UHGV virus genome: UHGV-0042525
Strand: one strand, 5' to 3'
DNA: 22,747 nucleotides
Source: a virus
A program made the position numbers and the translations under genes. Under the pieces are notes generated by a model. It was not told the origin of the DNA. It saw only the letters and a list, made by a program, of their open reading frames with translations, and searched no databases. Positions 1 to 22,747 of the stretch are shown one piece after another (position 1 is the first letter of the stretch; each line of letters begins with the position of its first letter).

Positions 1-64
1 AATCATGCCATTATTATATTTTAACACCAAAGCGTGTCGTTGGTATTTAATGGGGGAAGGTAAG

Positions 65-382
65 ATGAAAAAGATAGCTGCTATATCATTAATTAGTGTT
101 TTTCTTATGTCTGGGTGTGCTGTGCATAATGATGAGACAAGTATCGGTAAATTTGGTCTTGCATATAAAAGTAATATTCAGCGTAAACTCGATAACCAAT
201 ACTACACCGAAGCCGAAGCTTCTTTAGCCAGGGGCAGAATTTCTGGTGCAGAAAATATAGTAAAAAATGATGCAGCTCATTTCTGTGTTACTCAGGGCAA
301 AAAAATGCAGATAGTTGACCTGAAGACAGAAGGTGCAGGATTACATGGCGTCGCTCGTCTGACATTCAAATGTGGAGAGTGA
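65..382 (+). CDS. small lipoprotein, function unknown (host flank)
   Basis: ORF-track frame 5..382; preferred start ATG 65 with GGGGAAGG upstream. N-terminus MKKIAAISLISVFLMSGC looks like a signal peptide ending in a lipobox-like Cys. Lies outside the att core, so host-encoded. Host gene not recognised with certainty. Confidence 0.55.
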   Translation: MKKIAAISLISVFLMSGCAVHNDETSIGKFGLAYKSNIQRKLDNQYYTEAEASLARGRISGAENIVKNDAAHFCVTQGKKMQIVDLKTEGAGLHGVARLTFKCGE

Positions 383-540
383 GAATATTTTTTGGTAAGC
401 GTCAAACATGCGCGTTCTGGTTGTGCTTAGCCGGAACCTGTGCGAGCACGATGCCGTTACGTGAAAGGCATCGTGCTATGAAGGGAGATTCTATCGATGT
501 GGTCAATGGAAGACGGTGACCAGGGATAGGGCTTACGCGT

Positions 541-567
541 AAAAAATAAGCCCGTGTAAGGGAGATT
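541..567. other. attL: attL core of a P2-type integration site
   Basis: AAAAAATAAGCCCGTGTAAGGGAGATT read directly; matches my recollection of the 27-bp phage P2 att core. Sits ~80 bp beyond the 3' end of int, as in P2. Not verified by search. Confidence 0.7.
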
Positions 568-646
568 TAGGGTGTCACCAGTAGGGGCTTTCAACGGTAC
601 AATGCGGGTTTGAGCGGCATAAATTACCACTGAAAGCCCTTAAACG

Positions 647-1660
647 TTACTCTACTGTGGACACTGTGTGGACACTCTCGGCCTCAGTACCACCTCTTAG
701 CGGATTAAGAGAAATGGCGTCCTGAAGGTACTCTGGCGCAAAATGAGCGTAAACCATAGTTTGCTCAATCCGCGTGTGACCTAGTATCCGTTGTAGCGTG
801 ATAATACTTCCTCCATTAATCATGAAATGAGTGGCAAAGCTGTGCCTTAGTGCATGTGTGGCTTGCCCCATTGGCAAATCCGGTTTTATTGCTTTCATTG
901 TTCGTCTGAAGCGAGGGTAATCAGCATCAGGGAATAAAAAACCTCGTTTGTTATCCGCGATCATTTTGGCAACAGCCTCTGAGATCGGGACGGTGCGTGG
1001 TTTGTTTGTTTTCGTTTTAACAAACGTGACGCGGTTATGGATGATATTTTCTGCTTTCAAACGAGCTGCTTCTCCCCAACGTGCTCCAGTACTCAGGCAA
1101 AGAATCGCAATCTTTTTGTTGTCGCCGTCAAGAGCAGCAAGCAGTAAGGCAATTTCTTCCTGCGTGAGATAGCCTGTGTCTGGTTTTTCCTCCTTAAGCC
1201 TTTTTGTCCCTCTGATAGGGTGCTCACCAAAGAATAACTCCGCTTCAATCAGGGCTGTAAACATGCCGCTAATACATGTTAAATCACGATTGATACTCGA
1301 AGGTTTAATACCCTGACTTCTTCGGGTGGCGCAGTACTGGCTGATAAGCGATTTCGTAATTTGAAATGCGCATGGGTCATTAGTTATTTTTGTGAAGATT
1401 TCGATTTTTCCAAGATTAGATTTCCCATGCTCTTCGTGTTTACCCTTTAAATCCCACCAGATCTGTGTCAGCTCCGACAGACGTCGCTTGTCTCTTGGTT
1501 TTGATAGCCATTCTTTATTGTGGTGGTTGTACAACGTGTATTTCTCGAAAGCGACAGCTTCGCTTTTCTTATCAAACTTCCTACGGATGCGTTTTCCATT
1601 ACGTCCAGTAGGGCGGATGTCCACTTCATATCGACCATCATCGAGTTTTTTGATTGCCAT
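647..1660 (-). CDS. int: tyrosine integrase (P2 Int-like)
   Basis: 337-aa ORF starting MAIKKLDDGRYEVDIRPTGRNGKR. C-terminal catalytic region has tyrosine-recombinase residues (GARWGEAARL, HALRHSFATHF, LGH...VYAHF). Placed between att core and C repressor as in P2. Confidence 0.95.
   Translation of the reverse strand: MAIKKLDDGRYEVDIRPTGRNGKRIRRKFDKKSEAVAFEKYTLYNHHNKEWLSKPRDKRRLSELTQIWWDLKGKHEEHGKSNLGKIEIFTKITNDPCAFQITKSLISQYCATRRSQGIKPSSINRDLTCISGMFTALIEAELFFGEHPIRGTKRLKEEKPDTGYLTQEEIALLLAALDGDNKKIAILCLSTGARWGEAARLKAENIIHNRVTFVKTKTNKPRTVPISEAVAKMIADNKRGFLFPDADYPRFRRTMKAIKPDLPMGQATHALRHSFATHFMINGGSIITLQRILGHTRIEQTMVYAHFAPEYLQDAISLNPLRGGTEAESVHTVSTVE
656..675. promoter_or_regulatory. tandem direct repeat TGTGGACAC x2 at 11-bp phasing; candidate Int arm-type binding sites
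   Basis: Identical 9-mers at 656-664 and 667-675 seen directly, overlapping the last codons of int. P2 Int arm-type sites are direct repeats near the int end (recalled, not verified). Confidence 0.4.
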
Positions 1661-1775
1661 CAGAAAACCCTCCGAGTGGTGTGTTTTTTTGCGACTACTA
1701 ATCGCTTTTTTCGTGGTGGCTGAAATTTAGCCACCAATAGTAGGCACTTGTGATGAATATATTCACGATGAATTG

Positions 1776-2075
1776 TTAACCAGTCTTTTGACCGGAGTGG
1801 GGCGACGTTGTTTCGTTTTGCCCAAAGTGTGCGAGAGCGGGCGCAATTTGCCCGGACTCAGGAGCGATCTGATTGGTCATGAACCATAAAGTGTATTTGG
1901 TGAATTGTGGGGTCTGCAGGATGTTCATCATGACATCTGTTGGAGGTGTTGAACGACCACTTTCATAGTAACTCAGCGTGCCATACGGAACCCCTGTTAA
2001 ATCAGCAAGTTGTTGTCTGCTCAAATACTCTGATTTTCGCATTAAGACTATCTTCTCGCTTATCGTGTTTGACAT
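1776..2075 (-). CDS. C: immunity repressor C (P2 C-like)
   Basis: 99-aa ORF MSNTISEKIVLMRKSEYLSRQQLADLTGVPYGTLSYYESG with helix-turn-helix. Divergent from cox across a 114-bp switch region; same length as P2 C. Confidence 0.9.
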   Translation of the reverse strand: MSNTISEKIVLMRKSEYLSRQQLADLTGVPYGTLSYYESGRSTPPTDVMMNILQTPQFTKYTLWFMTNQIAPESGQIAPALAHFGQNETTSPHSGQKTG

Positions 2076-2189
2076 GGTGTTTAGATCTCAATAGTATTTA
2101 GTTTAGATGTAGATTGTTTAGTGCTTGGATGTGGGCACTAAAAGGCATTATAAGACATTAAACGCAATTCATGAGGGCTAGAGGACGAC
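2076..2189. promoter_or_regulatory. C/cox transcriptional switch (divergent Pc and Pe promoters with operator repeats)
   Basis: Intergenic between divergent C and cox. Direct repeats TTTAGAT at 2080-2086 and 2103-2109 (about 22-23 bp apart) with further TTTAG half-repeats. TTAAACGCA at 2158-2166 resembles a Cox-box. Promoter -10/-35 not mapped. Confidence 0.55.
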
Positions 2190-2465
2190 ATGAGCAAGCA
2201 AGTAACACTCATGACTGATGCGATTCCTTATCAGGAGTTCGCAAAACTAATAGGAAAATCGACAGGAGCGGTTCGTCGGATGATCGATAAAGGAAAGCTG
2301 CCTGTAATTGATATGACCGATCCACAATCAGCTTCAGGTCGTGCAGGTGAATATTGGGTATACCTTCCGGCATGGAATAACGGACTAAAACTGGCTTATG
2401 AAAGCCGCCCTAAAGAGATTCGTGACGGCTGGTTGATGTGGTTAGGTCTCGGTGAACCACGTTAA
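2190..2465 (+). CDS. cox: Cox excisionase / early transcription regulator
   Basis: 91-aa ORF MSKQVTLMTDAIPYQEFAKLIGKSTGAVRRMIDKGKLPVID; first gene of the rightward early operon opposite C; length equals P2 Cox. Confidence 0.9.
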   Translation: MSKQVTLMTDAIPYQEFAKLIGKSTGAVRRMIDKGKLPVIDMTDPQSASGRAGEYWVYLPAWNNGLKLAYESRPKEIRDGWLMWLGLGEPR

Positions 2466-2646
2466 GGAGAACCGTATGAATGAGCCTCGTTGTATTGCTC
2501 AGTTACTGCGTAACGAAAGCCCTAGGGCGATTGACTTCACCATCACCCACGGTAAGGGGCGTAAGGGAATCATTATCCGCACCAAAAAACAGAGTCCGTT
2601 AAAAAAGGCTCTGACCTTTCTGAAAAGCCGGAGGGTATGGAAATGA
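2452..2646 (+). CDS. small early protein (P2 orf78 position), function unknown
   Basis: ORF-track 64-aa frame overlapping cox stop and B start; alternative ATG at 2476 (MNEPRC...). Basic, Lys/Arg-rich C-terminus. Confidence 0.5.
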   Translation: MNHVKENRMNEPRCIAQLLRNESPRAIDFTITHGKGRKGIIIRTKKQSPLKKALTFLKSRRVWK

Positions 2647-3143
2647 CAGTGATGACGCTCAATCTCGTTGAAAAACAGCCAGCAGCTATGCGCCGGATAA
2701 TTGGTAAGCATCTTGCCGTTCCTCGCTGGCAGGATACATGTGATTATTATAATCAGATGATGGAGCGCGAACGGTTAACGGTTTGCTTCCATGCTCAGTT
2801 AAAACAGCGTCACGCAACGATGTGTTTTGAAGAAATGAACGACGTCGAACGTGAACGACTGGTATGTGCAATTGATGAATTGCGTGGTGCATTCTCAAAA
2901 CGCCGTCAGGTTGGCGCAAGTGAGTATGCATATATTAGTTTTTTAACAGTCAGTCAGCGTCGTACTTTATTTATGCATGCCGGATTGACTGAAAAAGAAT
3001 TCAACCAGCCATACTGGCGAATTAATGAAGAGTCATGTTACTGGCGTGATGCTTTATTCCGTGCATTACGTGAATTATTCAGTCTGTTTGAGTATGCACC
3101 GACAATTCTGACGTCGGTAAAACCGGAGCAATATCTGCATTAA
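2637..3143 (+). CDS. B: replication protein B (helicase-loader-like, P2 gpB)
   Basis: 168-aa ORF; GGAGGG 5-6 nt upstream of ATG 2637 (alternative ATG 2643 gives 166 aa, the P2 B length). Position between cox/orf78 and the orf80-83 cluster. Confidence 0.85.
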   Translation: MEMTVMTLNLVEKQPAAMRRIIGKHLAVPRWQDTCDYYNQMMERERLTVCFHAQLKQRHATMCFEEMNDVERERLVCAIDELRGAFSKRRQVGASEYAYISFLTVSQRRTLFMHAGLTEKEFNQPYWRINEESCYWRDALFRALRELFSLFEYAPTILTSVKPEQYLH

Positions 3144-3173
3144 GTAATTAACCAGAGTTTTTAACGCACTTAA

Positions 3174-3431
3174 TTGTGCGGGGCTTCTTTTTGCCTGGAG
3201 AAAGTTATGCATACAGTTTCTGAAAATCAGTGCGGTATATACGCATTACTGCTGCAACAGGCCAGAATCGCAGCACAGGCCGACGCTGCGACGCGCTTTT
3301 CTTCTCATCTTGATGCCATGATTCGCCACATCACAAAGGCGGAGTTATCCCGCGTGGAGATAGTCGAGCTGCTCAGTCAGGAGTCGGAAAAATTTCACAA
3401 TATCGGATTGTCTCGCGGGGAGGTGCTTTGA
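3174..3431 (+). CDS. hypothetical early protein (P2 orf80 position)
   Basis: ORF-track 85 aa; alternative start ATG 3207 (MHTVSENQ). Stop overlaps next ORF start (ATGA-type coupling). Confidence 0.55.
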
Positions 3432-3733
3432 TGTTCTGTTCTCGTTCAGTTGTATTACTGAATAACGCCTTAAAAATCGCCGTTATGAAAAATGGCGATT
3501 TGTCTCTTATTCAACTTGGTCTTGATAAAGAAAAACGCGAAATAACTGAATCTGTTATCGCGATTTATCAGAGTGAATTAAACCTCCTGTCTGATGTGGT
3601 CAATTTACTTGTTAAACGCGCTGTATTTCACAAGCAAATTTCCTCCGTGGATGAACTGACGAAATTAACGACAGAAATCGCCAGCTATTGCGCTGATGAA
3701 TTTAAAAAACTGAACGACAAAAGGAACTGGTAA
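3428..3733 (+). CDS. hypothetical early protein (P2 orf81 position)
   Basis: 101-aa ORF, translationally coupled to flanking ORFs. Confidence 0.55.
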
Positions 3734-4229: not shown

Positions 4230-6504
4230 AGCCTCCGGGCGTTTTGTCCCTCCGTCAGCATTTGCCGCAGGCACCGGTAAGATGTTTACCGGTGCTTATG
4301 CATGGAACGCGCCACGCGAGGCCGTCGGGCGCGAAAGACCCCTTACACGTGACGAGATGCGTCAGATGCAAGGTGTTTTATCCACGATTAACCGCCTGCC
4401 TTACTTTTTGCGCTCGCTGTTTACTTCACGCTATGACTACATCCGGCGCAATAAAAGCCCGGTGCACGGGTTTTATTTCCTCACATCCACTTTTCAGCGT
4501 CGTTTATGGCCGCGCATTGAGCGTGTGAATCAGCGCCATGAAATGAACACCGACGCGTCGTTGCTGTTTCTGGCAGAGCGTGACCACTATGCGCGCCTGC
4601 CGGGAATGAATGACAAGGAGCTGAAAAAGTTTGCCGCCCGTATCTCATCGCAGCTTTTCATGATGTATGAGGAACTCAGCGATGCCTGGGTGGATGCACA
4701 TGGCGAAAAAGAATCGCTGTTTACGGATGAGGCGCAGGCTCACCTCTATGGTCATGTTGCTGGCGCTGCACGTGCTTTCAATATTTCCCCGCTTTACTGG
4801 AAAAAATACCGTAAAGGACAGATGACCACGAGGCAGGCATATTCTGCCATTGCCCGTCTGTTTAACGATGAGTGGTGGACTCATCAGCTCAAAGGCCAGC
4901 GTATGCGCTGGCATGAGGCGTTACTGATTGCTGTCGGGGAGGTGAATAAAGACCGTTCTCCTTATGCCAGTAAACATGCCATTCGTGATGTGCGTGCACG
5001 CCGCCAGGCAAATCTGGAATTTCTTAAATCGTGTGACCTTGAAAACAGGGAAACCGGCGAGCGCATCGACCTTATCAGTAAGGTGATGGGCAGTATTTCT
5101 AATCCTGAAATTCGCCGGATGGAGCTGATGAACACCATTGCCGGTATTGAGCGTTACGCCGCCGCAGAGGGTGATGTGGGGATGTTTATCACGCTTACCG
5201 CGCCGTCAAAGTATCACCCGACACGTCAGGTCGGAAAAGGCGAAAGTAAAACCGTCCAGCTAAATCACGGCTGGAACGATGAGGCATTTAATCCAAAGGA
5301 TGCGCAGCGTTATCTCTGCCATATCTGGAGCCTGATGCGCACGGCATTCAAAGATAATGATTTACAGGTCTACGGTTTGCGTGTCGTCGAGCCACACCAC
5401 GACGGAACGCCGCACTGGCATATGATGCTTTTTTGTAATCCACGCCAGCGTAACCAGATTATCGAAATCATGCGTCGCTATGCGCTCAAAGAGGATGGCG
5501 ACGAAAGAGGAGCCGCGCGAAACCGTTTTCAGGCAAAACACCTTAACCAGGGCGGTGCTGCGGGGTATATCGCGAAATACATCTCAAAAAACATCGATGG
5601 CTATGCACTGGATGGTCAGCTCGATAACGATACCGGCAGACCGCTGAAAGACACTGCTGCGGCTGTTACCGCATGGGCGTCAACGTGGCGCATCCCACAA
5701 TTTAAAACGGTTGGTCTGCCGACAATGGGGGCTTACCGTGAACTACGCAAATTGCCTCGCGGCGTCAGCATTGCTGATGAGTTTGACGAGCGCGTCGAGG
5801 CTGCACGCGCCGCCGCAGACAGTGGTGATTTTGCGTTGTATATCAGCGCGCAGGGTGGGGCAAATGTCCCGCGCGATTGTCAGACTGTCAGGGTCGCCCG
5901 TAGTCCGTCGGATGACGTTAACGAGTACGAGGAAGAAGTCGAGAGAGTGGTCGGCATTTACGCGCCGCATCTCGGCGCGCGTCATATTCATATCACCAGA
6001 ACGACGGACTGGCGCATTGTGCCGAAAGTTCCGGTCGTTGAGCCTCTGACTTTAAAAAGCGGCATCGCCGCGCCTCGGAGTCCTGTCAATAACTGTGGAA
6101 AGCTCACCGGTGGTGATACTTCGTTACCGGCTCCCACACCTTCTGAGCACGCCGCAGCAGTGCTTAATCTGGTTGATGACGGTGTTATTGAATGGAATGA
6201 ACCGGAGGTCGTGAGGGCGCTCAGGGGCGCATTAAAATACGACATGAGAACGCCAAACCGTCAGCAAAGAAACGGAAGCCCGTTAAAACCGCATGAAATT
6301 GCACCATCTGCCAGACTGACCAGGTCTGAGCGATTGCAGATCACCCGTATCCGCGTTGACCTTGCTCAGAACGGTATCAGGCCTCAGCGATGGGAACTTG
6401 AGGCGCTGGCGCGTGGCGCAACCGTAAATTATGACGGGAAAAAATTCACGTATCCGGTCGCTGATGAGTGGCCGGGATTCTCAACAGTAATGGAGTGGAC
6501 ATGA
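4219..6504 (+). CDS. A: rolling-circle replication initiator endonuclease (P2 gpA)
   Basis: Start ATG 4219 gives 761 aa (ORF-track frame opens at 4177). HUH-type motif PHWHMM (His at codons 399/401). Paired tyrosines GYIAKYISKN fall at codons 450 and 454 counted from 4219, the positions I recall for the P2 A active-site tyrosines. Confidence 0.9.
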   Translation: MAVKASGRFVPPSAFAAGTGKMFTGAYAWNAPREAVGRERPLTRDEMRQMQGVLSTINRLPYFLRSLFTSRYDYIRRNKSPVHGFYFLTSTFQRRLWPRIERVNQRHEMNTDASLLFLAERDHYARLPGMNDKELKKFAARISSQLFMMYEELSDAWVDAHGEKESLFTDEAQAHLYGHVAGAARAFNISPLYWKKYRKGQMTTRQAYSAIARLFNDEWWTHQLKGQRMRWHEALLIAVGEVNKDRSPYASKHAIRDVRARRQANLEFLKSCDLENRETGERIDLISKVMGSISNPEIRRMELMNTIAGIERYAAAEGDVGMFITLTAPSKYHPTRQVGKGESKTVQLNHGWNDEAFNPKDAQRYLCHIWSLMRTAFKDNDLQVYGLRVVEPHHDGTPHWHMMLFCNPRQRNQIIEIMRRYALKEDGDERGAARNRFQAKHLNQGGAAGYIAKYISKNIDGYALDGQLDNDTGRPLKDTAAAVTAWASTWRIPQFKTVGLPTMGAYRELRKLPRGVSIADEFDERVEAARAAADSGDFALYISAQGGANVPRDCQTVRVARSPSDDVNEYEEEVERVVGIYAPHLGARHIHITRTTDWRIVPKVPVVEPLTLKSGIAAPRSPVNNCGKLTGGDTSLPAPTPSEHAAAVLNLVDDGVIEWNEPEVVRALRGALKYDMRTPNRQQRNGSPLKPHEIAPSARLTRSERLQITRIRVDLAQNGIRPQRWELEALARGATVNYDGKKFTYPVADEWPGFSTVMEWT

Positions 6505-6830
6505 TGGCAAAAATTCACGAGGTAAAGCTGCACGCAAAATATTTCGACCTTGTACTGGAAGGAAAGAAACGCGCAGAGTTTCGGAAAAAAGATCGTAATT
6601 ATGAGCGCGGGGGCACGTTGATTTTGCATGAATGGGTGCAGGGTGTGTTTACGGGGCGAAAGGTTGAAGCCCGGATAACAGATGTTACTGACCTGTCAGA
6701 CTGGCTGGAAGATTATGTCTTGCTGCACAGAATACTAGGTGAGATACTGCCGCTGACTGTCAAGCTGGCAGTATCCTCCACATTTTTTATAAATCTAAGG
6801 CGAAGAACGGTGGCAATATATTTGCTTTAA
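6504..6830 (+). CDS. DUF3850/ASCH-like small protein (P2 orf91 position)
   Basis: Start ATG 6501 or 6504 overlapping A stop; MAKIHEVKLHAKYFDLVLEGKKRAEFRKKDRNYERGGTLILHEW resembles DUF3850/ASCH-type proteins. 3' end runs into the AT-rich island, so true C-terminus is uncertain. Confidence 0.55.
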   Translation: MAKIHEVKLHAKYFDLVLEGKKRAEFRKKDRNYERGGTLILHEWVQGVFTGRKVEARITDVTDLSDWLEDYVLLHRILGEILPLTVKLAVSSTFFINLRRRTVAIYLL

Positions 6831-6868
6831 ATTGTAAATAAGCAAATTATTCTAAGCCACAAATGATA

Positions 6869-7630
6869 TCAATTGAGTATCGATTTTCGTTCGAATATAA
6901 CCATAACGCCAAGCGTCAAATGTAAGTCATCTATATGTGATTCGTATTCATATTGGTCAGCATCAGGAGATAGTAAATGCTCTGCTGCTGTAAAAACATC
7001 AATTGTAACAGATATATCGTCTGGGATTTCTTCATTTAATTCGGATATGTATTTTTTATATTTGTTTTTTAATTTCCTTATCATGTCTTCCTTATGGTGG
7101 ATTGTAGTGCAGTAATTTTTTTTAGTTGAATCATTGTATGAATGGAATGAACAGTTTAATGCTAGGCCAAGACTTGAATTTCCTGTAGGGCCTGTGTGTT
7201 TAAAGTATTCAAGATTTCTTCTTATGTCAGAAAATAAAAGACTTTTACAGGGGGCATTTCCTTTAACTTCTATTGCACATATTGGAATGTCGAAAAATGG
7301 TCTGCTGTCCAATATGGCAATATCAATTCTGCCTGATCTTGTTGTGTTTGTGTTTTTTCTGACAGTTTTTTTTGAGAATGTTTTTTGGGGGTCAGACCGT
7401 TTCGATAAAGGAACTGTTGCATTAATGAATTTATTTGTATGGTACTCAAATATAACTTTGTAATCACCATGGCGAAAGGATTTTATTTCTAACAACGATA
7501 GACCTATAGATACGGTAGCTACATATTCAGTGTTTATTTTTGCACCAGACCTGAAATCCATTAAATAAGTTGCGTCGGCTGACTTTTTCATTCCATCTTT
7601 TACAGCTTTCACAATATCCATGTTATTCAT
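6869..7630 (-). CDS. tin: Tin-like protein (T-even phage exclusion), 253 aa
   Basis: Leftward ORF in the AT-rich island, downstream of old and convergent with orf91; AAAGGTG RBS about 9 nt before ATG. Size and position match P2 tin as recalled; sequence identity not verified. Confidence 0.65.
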   Translation of the reverse strand: MNNMDIVKAVKDGMKKSADATYLMDFRSGAKINTEYVATVSIGLSLLEIKSFRHGDYKVIFEYHTNKFINATVPLSKRSDPQKTFSKKTVRKNTNTTRSGRIDIAILDSRPFFDIPICAIEVKGNAPCKSLLFSDIRRNLEYFKHTGPTGNSSLGLALNCSFHSYNDSTKKNYCTTIHHKEDMIRKLKNKYKKYISELNEEIPDDISVTIDVFTAAEHLLSPDADQYEYESHIDDLHLTLGVMVIFERKSILN

Positions 7631-7804
7631 ATCAACACCTTTTATATTCCAGAATTATAAATCTTAATGATTGATTTGTTTGTGTGTTTAGGTTACTAGA
7701 TTGACGTACTTATAGCACATTCTGATTTTGAAATCACCATCCTTGGGTAAAGCACAGCCTATCACTATTGGTTTAGTACTGTGCTGTAATAGTATCAGAT
7801 TAAG

Positions 7805-9565
7805 TTAAATCCATTTTATGAAATCTTCCATTTCATCATATTTTTTTATTACTGCTCTAACATCTTTGCTTTCATCACATAAACAATCTAAAAGACTATC
7901 CCATTCAGTTTGTTTTTTACCAAATCCATAAACAGCCTCTATATCACCGGATTTCCATATATAGATTCCGTTATCTTTCAATTTTTGATGTATTTCATGT
8001 ATATGCTTTTGTGTTTTTTCATGGTTACATATTTTGATGAAGTCTTTGCTTGAAATGCTTTTGAATGACTCAAAAGTAGTAACTTTTGTATTTAAACTAA
8101 GCTCTCCTGAGTTGATTGATTCAATCAAAGCAGTCAATAGATTATCACATTCAGTACTAAGTAAGTCTTTATGCTCTGTTAATAGAATATTTGATAAGAA
8201 ATCACAATCAGCTAGAATCCTTGTTTTTATGCCGATGGCATTGATGATTTGTGACATCTTAAATAAACTACCCTTACCGTCAACGGCAACAATGCAGATT
8301 TTACTCGGGTTGAGTTCATGTCCGTTAATTTTTTTATAAAGTGCATATAGAACGTTTGTCTCTGTTTTCCCTTCAACAAGCAAAACTTCTTCAGAAAATA
8401 AAAGGTATGATGAATTAGAAAGCGTGAATGCTGAGTGCAATTGCGGTGATGAAGATTTATATAATTCTTCGATTTTTTCAGATATAGTCTTCCTTGCTAT
8501 GGTTCCATTAGAATCCTTACAAACCTGAATCGCATTTGCTGCATGCTTTGCAGAAAGCATACTGGCTGAGTGAGTTGATATTATAACCTGATACCCTGAT
8601 TCACTTAATGTGACAAGTGATTCTCTGACAGAATTAATGGCTGAAGGGTGTAAATATAACTCAGGTTCATCAATGAAAATCAAAGTGTTTGATTTTTTTG
8701 ATTCGCTGTTTTCTTTTTTTATTTCGGCCAGGTATTGAATTAATGCCATTTGAATGGAACGTTGTGTTCCGTGACCAAATCGGCTGATATCTCTCATTAC
8801 CGGTTCATCTTCCCGAGACTCAAAAACTTTCAGAGTGCCGGATTTAAATATCTCATCTAATGTCGGTGTGGGAAAGTGTAACTTTACACTTACGTCAGGA
8901 AAAAATTGGTTTACTTTTTTATTTACACCTGAGTCTATTTTATTAAGGCTTTCTAATCTGTTCTCACCGTTGTGAGAAAGATATTTACCTATTTCTGATA
9001 TGTTTTTTGAAAATTTTTCTTCGTGTTCTTGTTTTATTTCAGAAACAATTGCGGAAAGTATCTTTCCTATTGTGGTCGTGTTTTTGCATTTTGTTGAGTC
9101 TTCGACAGCGTCAGACATTGCAGGGATATGAATTGGTTCCGGAAATATATTGGAGATTGCACCATCTATGCCGCCAGGGTTTTTCTTCCACGTGGTACCG
9201 TCATATACATCCAGACTTTTTTTGGCTTTTCCTGTTTCCTTATTAAATTCCTGTCTTCTTGCAAAGGTAAGAGTCCCGTCAATTATAAACGGAGCTATTT
9301 TTTGTTGATTCTCTTCTGTTAACAAAGACAGAGTATCATCTGTTATACCTTGAATAACGCCTTCAACGGATACGGGGTGTGTAGGATCGTACACATCTGA
9401 TTCTGAAATCAAAGAGCCATCTAACAGCCACTTAATTGCTAAGATAATATTTGATTTTCCTGCGTTATTATAACCAACTAAAGCAGTGAAGGGGCGCAAA
9501 ATAGCCGATGTTGACTTACAAGAACGAAAGTTGCTAATTGAAACTGAAGCAAGACGTACAGTCAT
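7805..9565 (-). CDS. old: OLD-family ATPase-Toprim nuclease (class 1, P2 Old-like), 586 aa
   Basis: N-terminal ABC ATPase motifs: Walker A GYNNAGKS (about 9452-9475), Walker B LIFIDE, H-loop ISTHS. C-terminal Toprim-like motifs LLVEGKTE, AVDGKGS, LADCDF. 586 aa is the P2 Old length as recalled. First gene leftward from cos. Confidence 0.8.
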   Translation of the reverse strand: MTVRLASVSISNFRSCKSTSAILRPFTALVGYNNAGKSNIILAIKWLLDGSLISESDVYDPTHPVSVEGVIQGITDDTLSLLTEENQQKIAPFIIDGTLTFARRQEFNKETGKAKKSLDVYDGTTWKKNPGGIDGAISNIFPEPIHIPAMSDAVEDSTKCKNTTTIGKILSAIVSEIKQEHEEKFSKNISEIGKYLSHNGENRLESLNKIDSGVNKKVNQFFPDVSVKLHFPTPTLDEIFKSGTLKVFESREDEPVMRDISRFGHGTQRSIQMALIQYLAEIKKENSESKKSNTLIFIDEPELYLHPSAINSVRESLVTLSESGYQVIISTHSASMLSAKHAANAIQVCKDSNGTIARKTISEKIEELYKSSSPQLHSAFTLSNSSYLLFSEEVLLVEGKTETNVLYALYKKINGHELNPSKICIVAVDGKGSLFKMSQIINAIGIKTRILADCDFLSNILLTEHKDLLSTECDNLLTALIESINSGELSLNTKVTTFESFKSISSKDFIKICNHEKTQKHIHEIHQKLKDNGIYIWKSGDIEAVYGFGKKQTEWDSLLDCLCDESKDVRAVIKKYDEMEDFIKWI

Positions 9566-9759
9566 TATTTTTCCTTAAATGTGCTATTTGTATGCAATGA
9601 GTTCATACGAAACGCTTTTTTACATTTTATAGTCGTTGCATTCAAGGGTGCATGAGATTGCATTAAGGGAAACTGTGATATGGCTTGGCTTTTGACTGGA
9701 AATACTGATGGCTCATTAGTTTTATTAAGGTGCATTAAAACCGCCCCGTGAAGCGGGCG

Positions 9760-9778
9760 GGCGAGGCGGGGAAAGCAC
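9760..9778. other. cos: cos cohesive-end site (19-nt overhang sequence)
   Basis: GGCGAGGCGGGGAAAGCAC read directly; matches my recollection of the P2 cohesive end. Lies between old and Q, where linear phage ends join in a prophage. Confidence 0.75.
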
Positions 9779-9920
9779 TGCGCGCTGGCGGTGGTGCTGA
9801 TTTTATTTTTTCAGCGTCTGAGCGCGTCGTGAAGGCGCTTAGTCTGCCCGTTGAGGCGTTGGTGTGTCTGCGGGGTGTTTTGTGCGGTGGTGAGCGTGTG
9901 AGGGCGTGATGACGGGGTGT

Positions 9921-9942
9921 AAAAAAGCCGCCCGCAGGCGGC
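9921..9942 (-). terminator. rho-independent terminator after Q (end of Q-P transcript)
   Basis: On the minus strand GCCGCC-TGCG-GGCGGC followed by TTTTTT, 5 nt downstream of the Q stop (9948-9950). Confidence 0.55.
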
Positions 9943-9947
9943 GATGT

Positions 9948-10982
9948 TCAGCCGTTGTCAGTGTCCAGTGAGTAGTTTTTAAAGCGGATGACCTCCTGAC
10001 CGAGCCAGCCGTTTATCTCGCGGATCCTGTCCTGTAGAGGGATAAGCTCATTGCGGACAAAGACCTTTGCCACTTTCTCAATATCACCCAGCGACCCGAC
10101 GTTCTCCGGCTTGCCGCCCATCAACTGAAAGGGGATGCGGTGCGCGTCCAGCAGGTCAGCGGCGCTGGCTTTTTTGATATTAAAAAAATCGTCCTTCGTT
10201 GCCACTTCACTGAGCGGGATAATTTTAATGCCGTCGGCTTTCCCCTGCGGGGCATAGAGAAACAGATTTTTAAAGTTGTTGCGGCCTTTCGACTTGACCA
10301 TGTTTTCGCGAAGCATTTCGATATCGTTGCGATCCTGCACGGCATCGGTGACGTACATGATATATCCGGCATGAGCGCCGTTTTCGTAATACTTGCGGCG
10401 GAACAGCGTGGCCGACTCATTCAGCCAGGCAGAATTAAGGGCGCTGAGATATTCCGGCAGGCCGTACAGCTCCTGATTAATATCCGGCTCCAGCAGGTGA
10501 AACACGGAGCCGGGCGCGAAGGCTGTCGGCTCGTTGAAGGACGGCACCCACCAGTAAACATCCTCTTCCACACCACGGCGGGTATATTTTGCCGGTGAGG
10601 TTTCCAGCCTGATGACCTTACCGGTGGTGCTGTAACGCTTTTCCAGAAACGCATTACCGAACACCAGAAAATCCAGCACAAAGCGGCTGAAATCCTGCTG
10701 GGAAAGCCACGGATGCGGGATAAATGTCGAGGCCAGAATATTACGTTTGACGTAAATCGGTGAGCTGTGATGCACGGCAGCACGCAGGCTTTTTGCCAGA
10801 CCGGTAAAGCTGACCGGTGGCTCATACCATCTGCCGTTACTGATGCACTCGACGTAATCCAGAATGTCACGGCGGTCGAGTACCGGCACCGGCTCACCAA
10901 AGGTGAATGCCTCCATTTTCGGGGCGCTGGCGGTCATTGTTTTTGCCGCAGGTTGCGGTGTTTTCCCTTTTTTCTTGCTCAT
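9948..10982 (-). CDS. Q: portal protein (P2 gpQ)
   Basis: 344-aa ORF MSKKKGKTPQPAAKTMTASAPKMEAF; first gene past cos, leftward, overlapping P stop by 1 nt. Confidence 0.9.
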   Translation of the reverse strand: MSKKKGKTPQPAAKTMTASAPKMEAFTFGEPVPVLDRRDILDYVECISNGRWYEPPVSFTGLAKSLRAAVHHSSPIYVKRNILASTFIPHPWLSQQDFSRFVLDFLVFGNAFLEKRYSTTGKVIRLETSPAKYTRRGVEEDVYWWVPSFNEPTAFAPGSVFHLLEPDINQELYGLPEYLSALNSAWLNESATLFRRKYYENGAHAGYIMYVTDAVQDRNDIEMLRENMVKSKGRNNFKNLFLYAPQGKADGIKIIPLSEVATKDDFFNIKKASAADLLDAHRIPFQLMGGKPENVGSLGDIEKVAKVFVRNELIPLQDRIREINGWLGQEVIRFKNYSLDTDNG

Positions 10983-19128: not shown

Positions 19129-19194
19129 TTGTGCCATTCCTGACACCTCATCGTCACATTGCCGCCGGTATGACCCGGCGGCATCCTTCCCGTT
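19129..19194 (+). promoter_or_regulatory. late promoter region upstream of V (P2 PV position)
   Basis: 66-bp gap between S and V containing dyad TGT-N10-ACA (TGTGCCATTCCTGACA), consistent with an Ogr-type activator site. Assignment by position. Confidence 0.4.
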
Positions 19195-21620: not shown

Positions 21621-22697
21621 ATGAGCACAAAATTCAAAACCGTTATCACCACTGCCGGTGCAGCAAAGCTGGCAGCGGCAACCGCACCGGGAGGGCGGAA
21701 GGTCAATATTACCACGATGGCCGTCGGGGATGGCGGTGGTAAATTGCCTGTCCCGGATGCCGGACAGACCGGGCTTATCCACGAAGTCTGGCGACATGCG
21801 CTGAACAAAATCAGCCAGGACAAACGAAACAGTAATTATATTATCGCAGAGCTGGTTATTCCGCCGGAGGTGGGCGGCTTCTGGATGCGTGAGCTTGGCC
21901 TGTACGATGATGCGGGAACGTTAATTGCCGTGGCGAACATGGCCGAAAGTTATAAACCTGCCCTTGCCGAAGGCTCAGGGCGTTCGCAGACCTGCCGCAT
22001 GGTCATCATCGTCAGCAGTGTGGCCTCAGTGGAGCTGACCATTGACACCACAACGGTGATGGCGACGCAGGATTACGTTGATGACAAAATTGCAGAGCAT
22101 GAACAGTCACGACGTCACCCGGACGCCTCGCTGACCGCAAAAGGTTTTACTCAGTTAAGCAATGCGACCAACAGCACGTCTGAAACACTGGCCGCAACGC
22201 CGAAAGCGGTTAAGGCCGCATATGACCTTGCTAACGGGAAATATACCGCACAGGACGCTACCACAGCGCGAAAAGGTCTTGTCCAGCTAAGTAGTGCGAC
22301 CAACAGCATGTCTGAAACGCTCGCCGCAACACCAAAAGCCGTTAAGACGGTAATGGATGAAACGAACAAGAAAGCGCCATTAAACAGCCCTGCACTGACC
22401 GGAACGCCAACGACGCCAACTGCGCGACAGGGAACGAATAATACTCAGATCGCAAACACGGCTTTCGTTATGGCCGCGATTGCCGCCCTTGTAGACTCGT
22501 CGCCTGACGCACTGAATACGCTGAACGAGCTGGCGGCGGCGCTGGGCAATGACCCGAATTTTGCTACCACCATGACTAATGCGCTTGCGGGTAAGCAACC
22601 GAAAGATGCCACTTTGACGGCGCTGGCGGGGCTTGCTACTGCGGCAGACAGGTTTCCGTATTTTACGGGTGCGTATTACCGTGAAGGAGATCGGTGA
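21621..22697 (+). CDS. H: tail fibre protein H, N-terminal (virion-proximal) region; ORF stops at 358 aa
   Basis: Starts MSTKFKTVITTAGAAKLAAATAPGG after I; contains tandem phage-fibre repeats (SxATNSxSETLAATPKAVK). The in-frame stop at 22695-22697 is earlier than I expect for a P2 H (about 669 aa as recalled). Confidence 0.75.
   Translation: MSTKFKTVITTAGAAKLAAATAPGGRKVNITTMAVGDGGGKLPVPDAGQTGLIHEVWRHALNKISQDKRNSNYIIAELVIPPEVGGFWMRELGLYDDAGTLIAVANMAESYKPALAEGSGRSQTCRMVIIVSSVASVELTIDTTTVMATQDYVDDKIAEHEQSRRHPDASLTAKGFTQLSNATNSTSETLAATPKAVKAAYDLANGKYTAQDATTARKGLVQLSSATNSMSETLAATPKAVKTVMDETNKKAPLNSPALTGTPTTPTARQGTNNTQIANTAFVMAAIAALVDSSPDALNTLNELAAALGNDPNFATTMTNALAGKQPKDATLTALAGLATAADRFPYFTGAYYREGDR
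22151..22346 (+). repeat. tandem coding repeat (phage tail-fibre repeat) within H
   Basis: Two ~64-nt imperfect copies (about 22151-22214 and 22283-22346, period ~132 nt) encoding QLSxATNSxSETLAATPKAVK. Confidence 0.5.
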
Positions 22698-22747
22698 GTA
22701 ACATCGATGGAGATCGGTTCGTGTCACTTTCACAGAACCGTTTTTAA

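What the first reader, a model, noticed from the sequence alone, without database searches (positions are those of the whole stretch)
6831..9759. AT-rich two-gene exclusion island (OLD-family nuclease + Tin-like protein) at the orf91/cos hotspot
Between orf91 and cos the GC content drops sharply (e.g. 7021-7140 is mostly A/T) against ~55-60% GC in flanking phage genes, marking acquired cargo. Two leftward genes sit there: a 586-aa protein with ABC-ATPase and Toprim-like motifs, and a 253-aa partner. This is the variable anti-phage hotspot of P2-like phages, and size, order and motifs fit canonical P2 old + tin. I therefore judge it a known module, not a novel system, but it is the main accessory cargo here.
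Basis: partly seen in the sequence, partly recalled or inferred. Interest (0 to 1): 0.55.

Follow-up and report, generated by a model that had tools for sequence, protein, structure and literature searches.

The report
Phage P2 old–tin exclusion genes
This AT-rich stretch is the long-known pair of phage P2 genes, old and tin, which let a P2-carrying E. coli block other phages; the call is correct but ordinary, and the only new point is that Tin is predicted to have a nuclease fold.

Summary
Window 6831-9759 has 34.3% GC, against a mean of 53.8% elsewhere, and carries two leftward genes of 586 and 253 aa between orf91 and cosR. The DNA is 99.9% identical to the phage P2 reference; Old is 586/586 identical to P2 Old, and Tin differs by one residue (I84T). 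The window is an integrated, mosaic P2-type prophage next to host yegR.

This is an already-known module. Old is an ABC-ATPase/TOPRIM protein. A 2026 preprint reports that it works alone as an abortive tRNase, triggered by phage-origin ssDNA hairpins or by DNA defects in RecBCD-deficient cells. Tin excludes T-even phages, and the literature links this to T4 gp32.

One correction: Tin is not a functional partner of Old. Six Tin homologs (32-71% identity) sit in unrelated mobile elements with no OLD-type neighbour, and Tin evolves much faster than Old (omega 0.37 against 0.04 in one strain pair).

The parts
6501..6830 (+). orf91 (DUF3850/ASCH-type protein). Left boundary of the island; not part of the cargo.
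   Evidence: P2 annotation; Pfam DUF3850 8e-15 and ASCH 5e-10; one change from P2, D38G.
6810..6860 (-). AT-rich hairpin between the convergent stop codons of orf91 and tin. Candidate bidirectional terminator (inferred).
   Evidence: RNA fold -13.3 kcal/mol, z -2.0; sequence read. The consensus terminator scan did not call it.
6869..7630 (-). tin, 253 aa. T-even phage exclusion protein.
   Evidence: 99.6% identical to P2 Tin AAD03308.1, with I84T plus two silent changes; PADLOC Tin 1.7e-97; phrog_9821 7e-177.
7133..7531 (-). Predicted PD-(D/E)xK (restriction-endonuclease-like) core of Tin, residues 34-166. Candidate catalytic residues are E35, E62, D103, E121 and K123; D135 and R138 are also conserved.
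7751..7785 (-). Hairpin just downstream of the old stop codon, in the 174-bp old-tin spacer (7631-7804). Possible attenuator or RNA-processing site (inferred, weak).
   Evidence: RNA fold of 7700-7810(-), -24.7 kcal/mol, z -1.96; no Rfam match; no credible small ORF.
7805..9565 (-). old, 586 aa. Class-1 (stand-alone) OLD-family ABC-ATPase/TOPRIM nuclease.
   Evidence: 586/586 identical to P2 Old, with zero nucleotide mismatches; PADLOC Old 1.3e-214; Pfam AAA_15, AAA_21 and OLD-like_TOPRIM.
8441..9565 (-). Old ABC-ATPase domain, about residues 1-375. Walker A G31-S38, Walker B L295-E300, H-loop H332.
   Evidence: Pfam AAA_15, AAA_21 and SMC_N; motif positions. The preprint reports that H332A abolishes defence.
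8201..8401 (-). Old TOPRIM nuclease domain, residues 389-455. E398, E402 and D453-x-D455.
   Evidence: Pfam PF20469 1.2e-17; motif positions. The preprint reports that E402A abolishes defence.
9609..9645 (-). old-tin promoter. -35 TTGAAT at 9640-9645, 17-bp spacer, -10 TAAAAA at 9617-9622; annotated transcript starts at 9611 and 9609.
   Evidence: Transcript starts come from the P2 record (33426/33424), mapped with the offset. The hexamers were read from the sequence. The consensus scan did not flag this promoter because the -10 lacks the final T.
9741..9760 (-). GC-rich hairpin plus T-run abutting cosR. Terminator-like on the old strand, upstream of the old promoter.
   Evidence: Terminator scan; the fold is not better than shuffles (z -0.65), so its function is uncertain.
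9760..9778 (+). cos cohesive-end sequence (cosR/cosL junction in the prophage). Right boundary of the island.
   Evidence: P2 annotation; the blastn arms meet and overlap at 9760-9778.

Best explanation
The island is the canonical lysogenic-conversion cargo of phage P2, carried here by an integrated, mosaic P2-type prophage. It holds two independent single-gene anti-phage systems, old and tin. Both are transcribed leftward as one mRNA from a promoter just inside cos, and both are expressed in the lysogen.

Old (from the literature): an ABC-ATPase sensor fused to a TOPRIM nuclease. It sits as an inactive tetramer. It is activated by ssDNA hairpins at an infecting phage's replication origin, or by aberrant DNA that accumulates when RecBCD is absent or inhibited. 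Activation opens the TOPRIM site, and Old then cuts out the anticodon arm of a subset of host tRNAs. This arrests translation and aborts the infection; lambda is the classic victim.

[quoted passage not shown] The published mechanism is poisoning of the T4 ssDNA-binding protein gp32.

Tin (inferred here): it is a PD-(D/E)xK, restriction-endonuclease-fold protein with an intact and strictly conserved E...D...ExK centre. Its exclusion activity therefore probably involves catalysis at gp32-coated replication or recombination intermediates, not only stoichiometric binding.
For: Identity:
- 99.9% DNA identity to P2 over old, tin, orf91 and cosR.
- Old 586/586 and Tin 252/253 identical.
- PADLOC Old 1e-214 and Tin 2e-97.
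- Position between gpA/orf91 and cos/gpQ, which is the published hotspot.
- A single old-tin mRNA is annotated.

Old mechanism:
- Preprint 10.64898/2026.07.10.737580.
- The residues it relies on, H332 and E402, are present, as are Walker A, Walker B and DxD.

Tin phenotype:
- The title of Mosig et al. 1997, as cited in PMC8987985.

Independence of the two genes:
- Six Tin homologs (71, 55, 53, 52, 41 and about 32% identity) lie in AlpA/P4-like islands, a lambdoid prophage, other slots of P2-like prophages and an IS-rich region. None has an OLD-type neighbour.
- Old was tested alone and was active.
- Selective regimes differ: omega 0.043 for old against 0.37 for tin.

Tin fold:
- Confident model.
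- Motif residues are invariant in 137 relatives.
- Sub-threshold Pfam and BFVD hits concentrate in PD-(D/E)xK families.
Against: Nothing argues against the identity call.

The Tin-is-an-enzyme inference has these weaknesses:
- Foldseek against PDB gave no significant hit (best E 0.04).
- A 107-sequence profile found nothing among PDB sequences.
- No Pfam family reaches its threshold.
- I could not inspect the structural superposition to confirm that D103, E121 and K123 overlay the BglII/BamHI active site.
- No biochemical nuclease activity of Tin is reported in the papers I could search.

The effect of the I84T substitution is untested. It lies in the lowest-confidence loop of the model (residues 72-85), at a variable alignment column.
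Confidence: 0.93

Rival explanations
1. Old and Tin form one two-component system. On this view Tin modulates Old or acts as its co-effector, and neither protein is fully functional alone.
For: The genes are adjacent and co-transcribed. They are found together in all 17 E. coli complete genomes that carry the island, and still together at 93-94% nucleotide identity. Rousset et al. cloned them as one 'old-tin' unit, and a review lists 'Old-tin' as a single system.
Against: Tin homologs occur without any OLD-type gene in six different contexts. Old alone on a plasmid gives defence and is described as a 'standalone immunity system'. Old and Tin were tested as separate systems with different phage spectra. 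Their evolutionary rates are decoupled.
Confidence: 0.04
2. Tin acts purely as a non-catalytic poison: it binds T4 gp32 stoichiometrically and blocks replication. On this view the PD-(D/E)xK-like fold is only a scaffold, or serves as a DNA-binding module.
For: This is the published model (Mosig et al. 1997, cited). Inactive PD-(D/E)xK-fold proteins are known (established knowledge). Foldseek and sequence-profile searches do not confirm the fold on their own.
Against: E35, E62, D103, E121, D135 and R138 are invariant, and K123 is kept in 136 of 137 members, in a family with only about 20% mean column identity. That pattern is typical of a catalytic centre, not of a binding surface for one phage's SSB. 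Family members also occur well outside hosts of T-even phages, in metagenomic contigs.
Confidence: 0.35
3. The cargo is a decaying remnant that is no longer functional in this prophage.
For: Prophage cargo often decays. Tin carries a substitution (I84T), and all three nucleotide differences in the island fall in tin.
Against: Both ORFs are full length. Old is identical to the functional reference. The promoter region 9566-9759 has no mismatch. I84T lies in a variable, low-confidence loop. The same Tin variant cluster holds 91 member sequences (P0001).
Confidence: 0.03

Closest known systems
Phage P2 old-tin locus (AF063097 / NC_001895, positions 30684-33426)
   Same: Same genes, order, orientation, promoter and position between orf91 and cos. 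99.9% DNA identity; Old identical, Tin 252/253.
   Different: Three A-to-G differences, all in tin (one gives I84T). The surrounding prophage is a mosaic: its left arm is only 96.5-97.7% identical to P2, the orf30 slot is empty, and the H tail-fibre C-terminus is divergent.
Class 1 OLD-family nucleases (for example Thermus scotoductus OLD, PDB 6p74) and Class 2 GajA of Gabija
   Same: ABC-ATPase plus TOPRIM architecture. PDB sequence hits: 6p74 at 1e-10 and GajA chains at about 2e-9. GajA and AriA models also match in PADLOC.
   Different: There is no UvrD-like helicase partner, which Gabija has. For P2 Old the reported target is tRNA and the reported resting state is a tetramer, whereas GajA nicks DNA.
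BglII/BamHI-type restriction endonucleases and the NucC effector (PD-(D/E)xK fold)
   Different: Only 7-14% sequence identity. Tin has extra N- and C-terminal helices and strands, and no methyltransferase partner. No nuclease activity has been shown for Tin, and Foldseek does not support the match.

Membership tests
Phage P2 Old (OLD-family, Class 1) | N-terminal ABC ATPase with Walker A, Walker B and H-loop | tested here: met
   Pfam AAA_15 98.8 bits (cut-off 32.1) and AAA_21 72.4 bits. GYNNAGKS at 31-38, LIFIDEP at 295-301, H332.
Phage P2 Old (OLD-family, Class 1) | C-terminal TOPRIM domain with a catalytic glutamate and DxD | tested here: met
   PF20469 OLD-like_TOPRIM 64.6 bits (cut-off 23.2), residues 389-455. 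E398, E402 and D453-C-D455.
Phage P2 Old (OLD-family, Class 1) | Stand-alone gene with no adjacent UvrD/PcrA-type helicase (Class 1 as opposed to Class 2/Gabija) | tested here: met
   The neighbours are tin (no Pfam domain and no helicase motifs) and cos/gpQ.
Phage P2 Old (OLD-family, Class 1) | Sequence identity to the prototype | tested here: met
   586/586 aa, with zero nucleotide mismatches.
Phage P2 Old (OLD-family, Class 1) | Excludes lambda, is lethal in recB/recC hosts, and cleaves tRNA | not testable with these tools
   Reported for the identical protein. Not measured for this lysogen.
Phage P2 Tin | Full-length homology to the P2 Tin prototype | tested here: met
   252/253 aa. PADLOC Tin 1.7e-97 over residues 2-249. 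phrog_9821 7e-177.
Phage P2 Tin | Specific exclusion of T-even phages, linked genetically to gp32 | not testable with these tools
   Literature only. The I84T variant is untested.
P2-like cos-proximal defence hotspot (Rousset et al. 2022) | Variable cargo located between replication gene A (plus orf91) and cos/portal gene Q | tested here: met
   A ends at 6504, orf91 is 6501-6830, the cargo is 6831-9759, cos is 9760-9778 and Q is 9948-10982. In the phage collection only the two P2 reference records match the island interior; the other 72 matching records listed or counted match only the cos-side flank.
PD-(D/E)xK nuclease superfamily (for Tin) | alpha-beta-beta-beta-alpha-beta core fold | tested here: inconclusive
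PD-(D/E)xK nuclease superfamily (for Tin) | Conserved D...(D/E)xK catalytic motif on strands beta2 and beta3 | tested here: met
   D103 lies in strand 101-108; E121 and K123 lie in strand 115-125. D103 and E121 are kept in 137/137 members and K123 in 136/137.
PD-(D/E)xK nuclease superfamily (for Tin) | Significant sequence-profile match to a curated family of the clan | tested here: not met
   No Pfam hit for Tin. Family members give only weak hits, E 0.0015-0.05, to HSDR_N, VRR_NUC, PDDEXK_4/9, RE_TdeIII and RE_SacI. The profile search against PDB sequences found nothing.
PD-(D/E)xK nuclease superfamily (for Tin) | Metal-dependent phosphodiesterase activity | not testable with these tools
   No report was found in the searchable library.

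The most novel reading that the evidence does not exclude
Tin is an active PD-(D/E)xK nuclease and the founding member of a family of about 200 clusters (at 50% identity) of stand-alone, moron-borne defence genes. On this reading T4 gp32 is not a poisoned target. It is the trigger or recruiter that licenses Tin to cut replication or recombination intermediates, or host DNA, which would reinterpret the 1997 'poisoning' model along the lines of modern SSB-sensing defence systems. The high nonsynonymous rate of tin compared with old would then reflect an arms race with phage SSBs.
Probability: 0.35. Interest if true: 0.5.

Novelty: already known. Interest (0 to 1): 0.15.

Why it matters
As a finding it matters little. 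It re-identifies the textbook P2 old-tin lysogenic-conversion genes in a P2-type prophage of E. coli, and the Old protein is the very sequence on which the current mechanistic work was done.

It is useful as annotation. RefSeq labels the same Tin sequence 'hypothetical protein' and Old 'ATP-dependent nuclease' or 'ATP-dependent endonuclease'.

The one point of wider interest concerns Tin. Its mechanism has rested on a 1997 genetic model. Here it is predicted to be a restriction-endonuclease-fold protein with a strictly conserved catalytic-type motif, and it travels as an independent single-gene module among hotspots of P2-like, lambdoid and P4-like elements. That gives a cheap, direct experiment (active-site mutants) to revisit how T-even phages are excluded.

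Tried and rejected
- Foldseek of the Tin model against PDB: no hit at E <= 0.001. The top hits were methyltransferases and RNase P proteins with TM about 0.2, so they were not used.
- Foldseek against afdb50: the library was not available.
- Foldseek against BFVD: sub-threshold only.
- phmmer and a 107-sequence profile of Tin against PDB sequences: nothing meaningful. Dps, Hsp16 and LytE appeared at E >= 1 and were rejected as chance. The NCBIfam Dps hit (E 0.007, 16.5 bits against a cut-off of 114) was rejected for the same reason.
- Rfam scan of 6400-10000 at E <= 1: no RNA family.
- Consensus promoter scan: it did not recover the annotated old-tin promoter, and it found fewer promoter-like sites than shuffles did (4 against 11.9). 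It was therefore not used as evidence either way.
- Small ORFs in the two intergenic regions: a 56-aa ORF at 9565-9735(-) starts upstream of the mapped transcript start and was rejected. The others are 34 aa or shorter.
- Antisense ORFs of 64-109 aa inside old and tin were treated as chance ORFs that overlap the two annotated P2 genes.
- Literature searches for any description of Tin as a nuclease or of a Tin structure: none found in the held library. This is absence from that library only.
- The idea that the window is the P2 virion genome itself was rejected. It has a host flank (1-537) and a mosaic left arm.
Full report
**Observation**

A sliding GC profile shows a sharp trough. Values are 0.28-0.39 from about 6800 to 9600, against 0.51-0.60 on either side.
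- All 26 400-bp windows inside the island are at or below 0.398. The 188 windows elsewhere average 0.538 (sd 0.054).
- Third-codon GC is 0.28 for both island genes, against 0.55-0.71 for the neighbouring genes A, Q and P. The composition difference is therefore a property of the genes themselves, as expected for horizontally acquired cargo.
- The two leftward ORFs are exactly as described: 7805-9565(-) of 586 aa and 6869-7630(-) of 253 aa.

**Identity**

- Megablast of 6700-9900 against 50,697 phage records gives 99.9% identity to phage P2 (AF063097 / NC_001895). The match covers features annotated old, tin, orf91, cosR and the two start sites of the 'old-tin mRNA'.
- A base-by-base comparison finds Old 586/586 identical, with no nucleotide mismatch.
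- Tin differs at three nucleotides, all A-to-G on the + strand. One of them changes I84 to T.
- orf91 has one change, D38G.
- Profile libraries agree: PADLOC Old 1.3e-214 and Tin 1.7e-97, both end to end; Pfam AAA_15, AAA_21 and OLD-like_TOPRIM above the curated cut-offs for Old, and nothing for Tin; phrog_4747 and phrog_9821.
- The Old motifs are all present: Walker A at 31-38, Walker B at 295-300, H332, E398/E402 and D453-x-D455.

**Context**

- Aligning the whole window to the full P2 record shows an integrated prophage, not a virion genome. Positions 1-537 are non-P2, and the best-matching E. coli chromosome annotates yegR there.
- 538-9778 matches the P2 right arm, from attP to cosR, at 99.74%.
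- 9760-19130 matches the P2 left arm at 97.7%.
- A 64-bp stretch (19131-19194) replaces the 940 bp that hold orf30 in P2.
- 19195-22669 matches at 96.5%. The last 78 bases, in the C-terminal part of tail-fibre gene H, diverge.
- The cargo is rare. Only P2 itself carries either protein among the phage records, and only 17 of 5,426 complete E. coli genomes carry the island.

**Anatomy of the operon**

- The transcript starts annotated in P2 map to window 9611 and 9609. Just upstream I read a -35 TTGAAT (9640-9645), a 17-bp spacer and a -10 TAAAAA (9617-9622). The consensus scanner does not report this promoter because the -10 lacks the final T.
- A 174-bp spacer separates old from tin. It holds a hairpin directly after the old stop codon (7751-7785, z -1.96).
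- A second AT-rich hairpin (6810-6860, z -2.0) lies between the convergent ends of tin and orf91. Both are modest, and any role in termination is inferred.
- No Rfam family and no credible small ORF lie in the non-coding parts.

**How Old works (literature)**

The protein is identical to the prototype, so the published mechanism applies directly. The July 2026 preprint 10.64898/2026.07.10.737580 reports the following:
- activation when the tetramer is destabilised to dimers, which opens the TOPRIM site;
- two cuts that remove the anticodon arm of a subset of host tRNAs, which arrests translation;
- rescue by phage-encoded tRNAs;
- triggering by aberrant DNA in RecBCD-deficient cells, or by ssDNA hairpins at the lambda replication origin;
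- loss of defence with H332A or E402A.

The preprint calls Old a 'standalone immunity system' and refers to 'the OLD and Tin systems' of the P2 defence locus.

**How Tin works (literature)**

In the BASEL study, all Tevenvirinae and no other tested phages were sensitive to Tin. That paper states the mechanism as poisoning of the replicative ssDNA-binding protein (PMC8594841). This follows Mosig et al. 1997, whose title I could cite only through PMC8987985.

**Is Tin a partner of Old?**

No, except for sharing a transcript.
- I looked up the genomic neighbourhoods of six Tin homologs.
  - P0004 (71% identity): beside AlpA and DUF927 genes.
  - P0012 (53%): in an AlpA island of Pectobacterium.
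  - P0013 (52%): between an integrase and lambda-type tail-fibre genes in Morganella.
  - P0015 (55%): in the S/V slot of another P2-like prophage, the position that orf30 occupies in P2.
  - P0023 (41%): beside a tail-fibre-assembly gene of a P2-like element.
  - P0028 (about 32%): among IS elements.
- None of the six has an ABC/TOPRIM neighbour.
- Within E. coli the pair does travel together. But in strain NCTC11476 Old is 98% identical while Tin is 83% identical. For old, dN/dS is 0.043 (dS 0.15); for tin it is 0.37 (dS 0.25). This is a single pairwise comparison, so it can only suggest that the two genes are under different selection.

**What Tin is (new inference)**

- Close relatives of Tin are few: 23 clusters at 90% identity among 5.8 billion proteins.
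- A profile search of 1.84 billion representatives finds 199 proteins at E <= 0.001 and 103 at E <= 1e-10. Those I looked up are mostly unnamed metagenomic proteins.
- Across 137 full-length members, E35, E62, D103, E121, D135 and R138 are invariant, and K123 is present in 136. A 107-sequence alignment gives the same result with only 20% mean column identity.
- An AlphaFold2 model built from 20 homologs is confident (pLDDT 83.9, pTM 0.84). It places D103 on one strand, E121-x-K123 on the next and E35 at the start of the preceding helix. That is the layout of a PD-(D/E)xK nuclease core.
- Supporting but sub-threshold evidence: weak Pfam hits of family members fall on HSDR_N, VRR_NUC, PDDEXK_4/9, RE_TdeIII and RE_SacI, and most named BFVD Foldseek hits are PD-(D/E)XK proteins.
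- Evidence against: Foldseek versus PDB is not significant, and sequence profiles find no solved relative.
- My conclusion is that Tin very probably has this fold and probably is an enzyme. Whether catalysis underlies T-even exclusion is untested. No paper in the searchable library describes Tin as a nuclease.

**Verdict**

This is the known P2 old-tin module, essentially the reference sequence, so both novelty and interest are low.
1. Old and Tin are independent systems, not partners.
2. Tin is predicted to be a PD-(D/E)xK-fold protein with a conserved active-site motif, which makes the old 'gp32 poisoning' model directly testable with point mutants.

Noticed in passing
window 1-568: Positions 1-537 are not P2. 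They carry a small lipoprotein-like ORF, read from the sequence at about 65-382, which the best-matching E. coli chromosome annotates as yegR with yegS beyond it. The P2 match begins at 538, at the position of the P2 attP core. The window therefore starts at the attL junction of an integrated prophage. From my own knowledge, E. coli K-12 has a cryptic P2 remnant at this locus.
   Followed up: partly
window 19131-19194: The P2 orf30 'moron' slot between tail genes S and V is empty here: 64 bp replace 940 bp of P2. In another P2-like prophage (L012 6001-6804) this same slot holds a Tin homolog of 55% identity. Tin-family genes therefore move between different hotspots of P2-like phages.
   Followed up: partly
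window 538-22747: The prophage is a mosaic relative to P2. The right arm (int through old) is 99.74% identical, but the left arm is 97.7% (Q through S) and 96.5% (V through H). The last 78 bases (22670-22747, the C-terminal part of tail-fibre gene H) no longer align, which suggests a different receptor-binding tip.
   Followed up: no
window 6869-7630 compared with L016 3039-3800: Within otherwise co-linear islands, tin diverges far faster than old: 83% against 98% protein identity, and dN/dS 0.37 against 0.043. Mismatches per 150 bp jump from 2-10 in old to 12-24 across tin and the old-tin spacer. This could reflect an arms race or a separate recombination history for tin.
   Followed up: partly
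window 7025, 7380, 7478: All three differences from P2 inside the island fall in tin, and all are A-to-G on the + strand. old and the promoter region have none.
   Followed up: no
window 6501-6830: orf91, which has no assigned function in the P2 record, is a DUF3850/ASCH-domain protein (Pfam 8e-15 and 5e-10) and matches a PHROG annotated 'RNA-binding protein' (3e-41). It carries D38G relative to P2. It overlaps the end of gene A by 4 bases.
   Followed up: no
window 9741-9760 and 9927-9942, minus strand: Two terminator-like GC hairpins with T-runs lie on the old strand, upstream of the old promoter. One is the annotated tQ terminator. The other abuts the cos cohesive end. In a prophage or circular genome they would insulate old-tin from read-through of the late P-Q operon. 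The cos-adjacent one does not fold better than shuffled sequence.
   Followed up: partly
window 1000-3600: The early and immunity region (int, C, cox, B, orf80-81) is also lower in GC (0.41-0.45) than the late genes. It is not as low as the old-tin island.
   Followed up: no
L015 (NZ_CP148746.1), compared with window 647-1660: In the E. coli genome whose island is 100% identical, RefSeq marks the integrase as frameshifted and marks orf91 and the portal gene as partial. In the window the integrase ORF is intact (337 aa).
   Followed up: no
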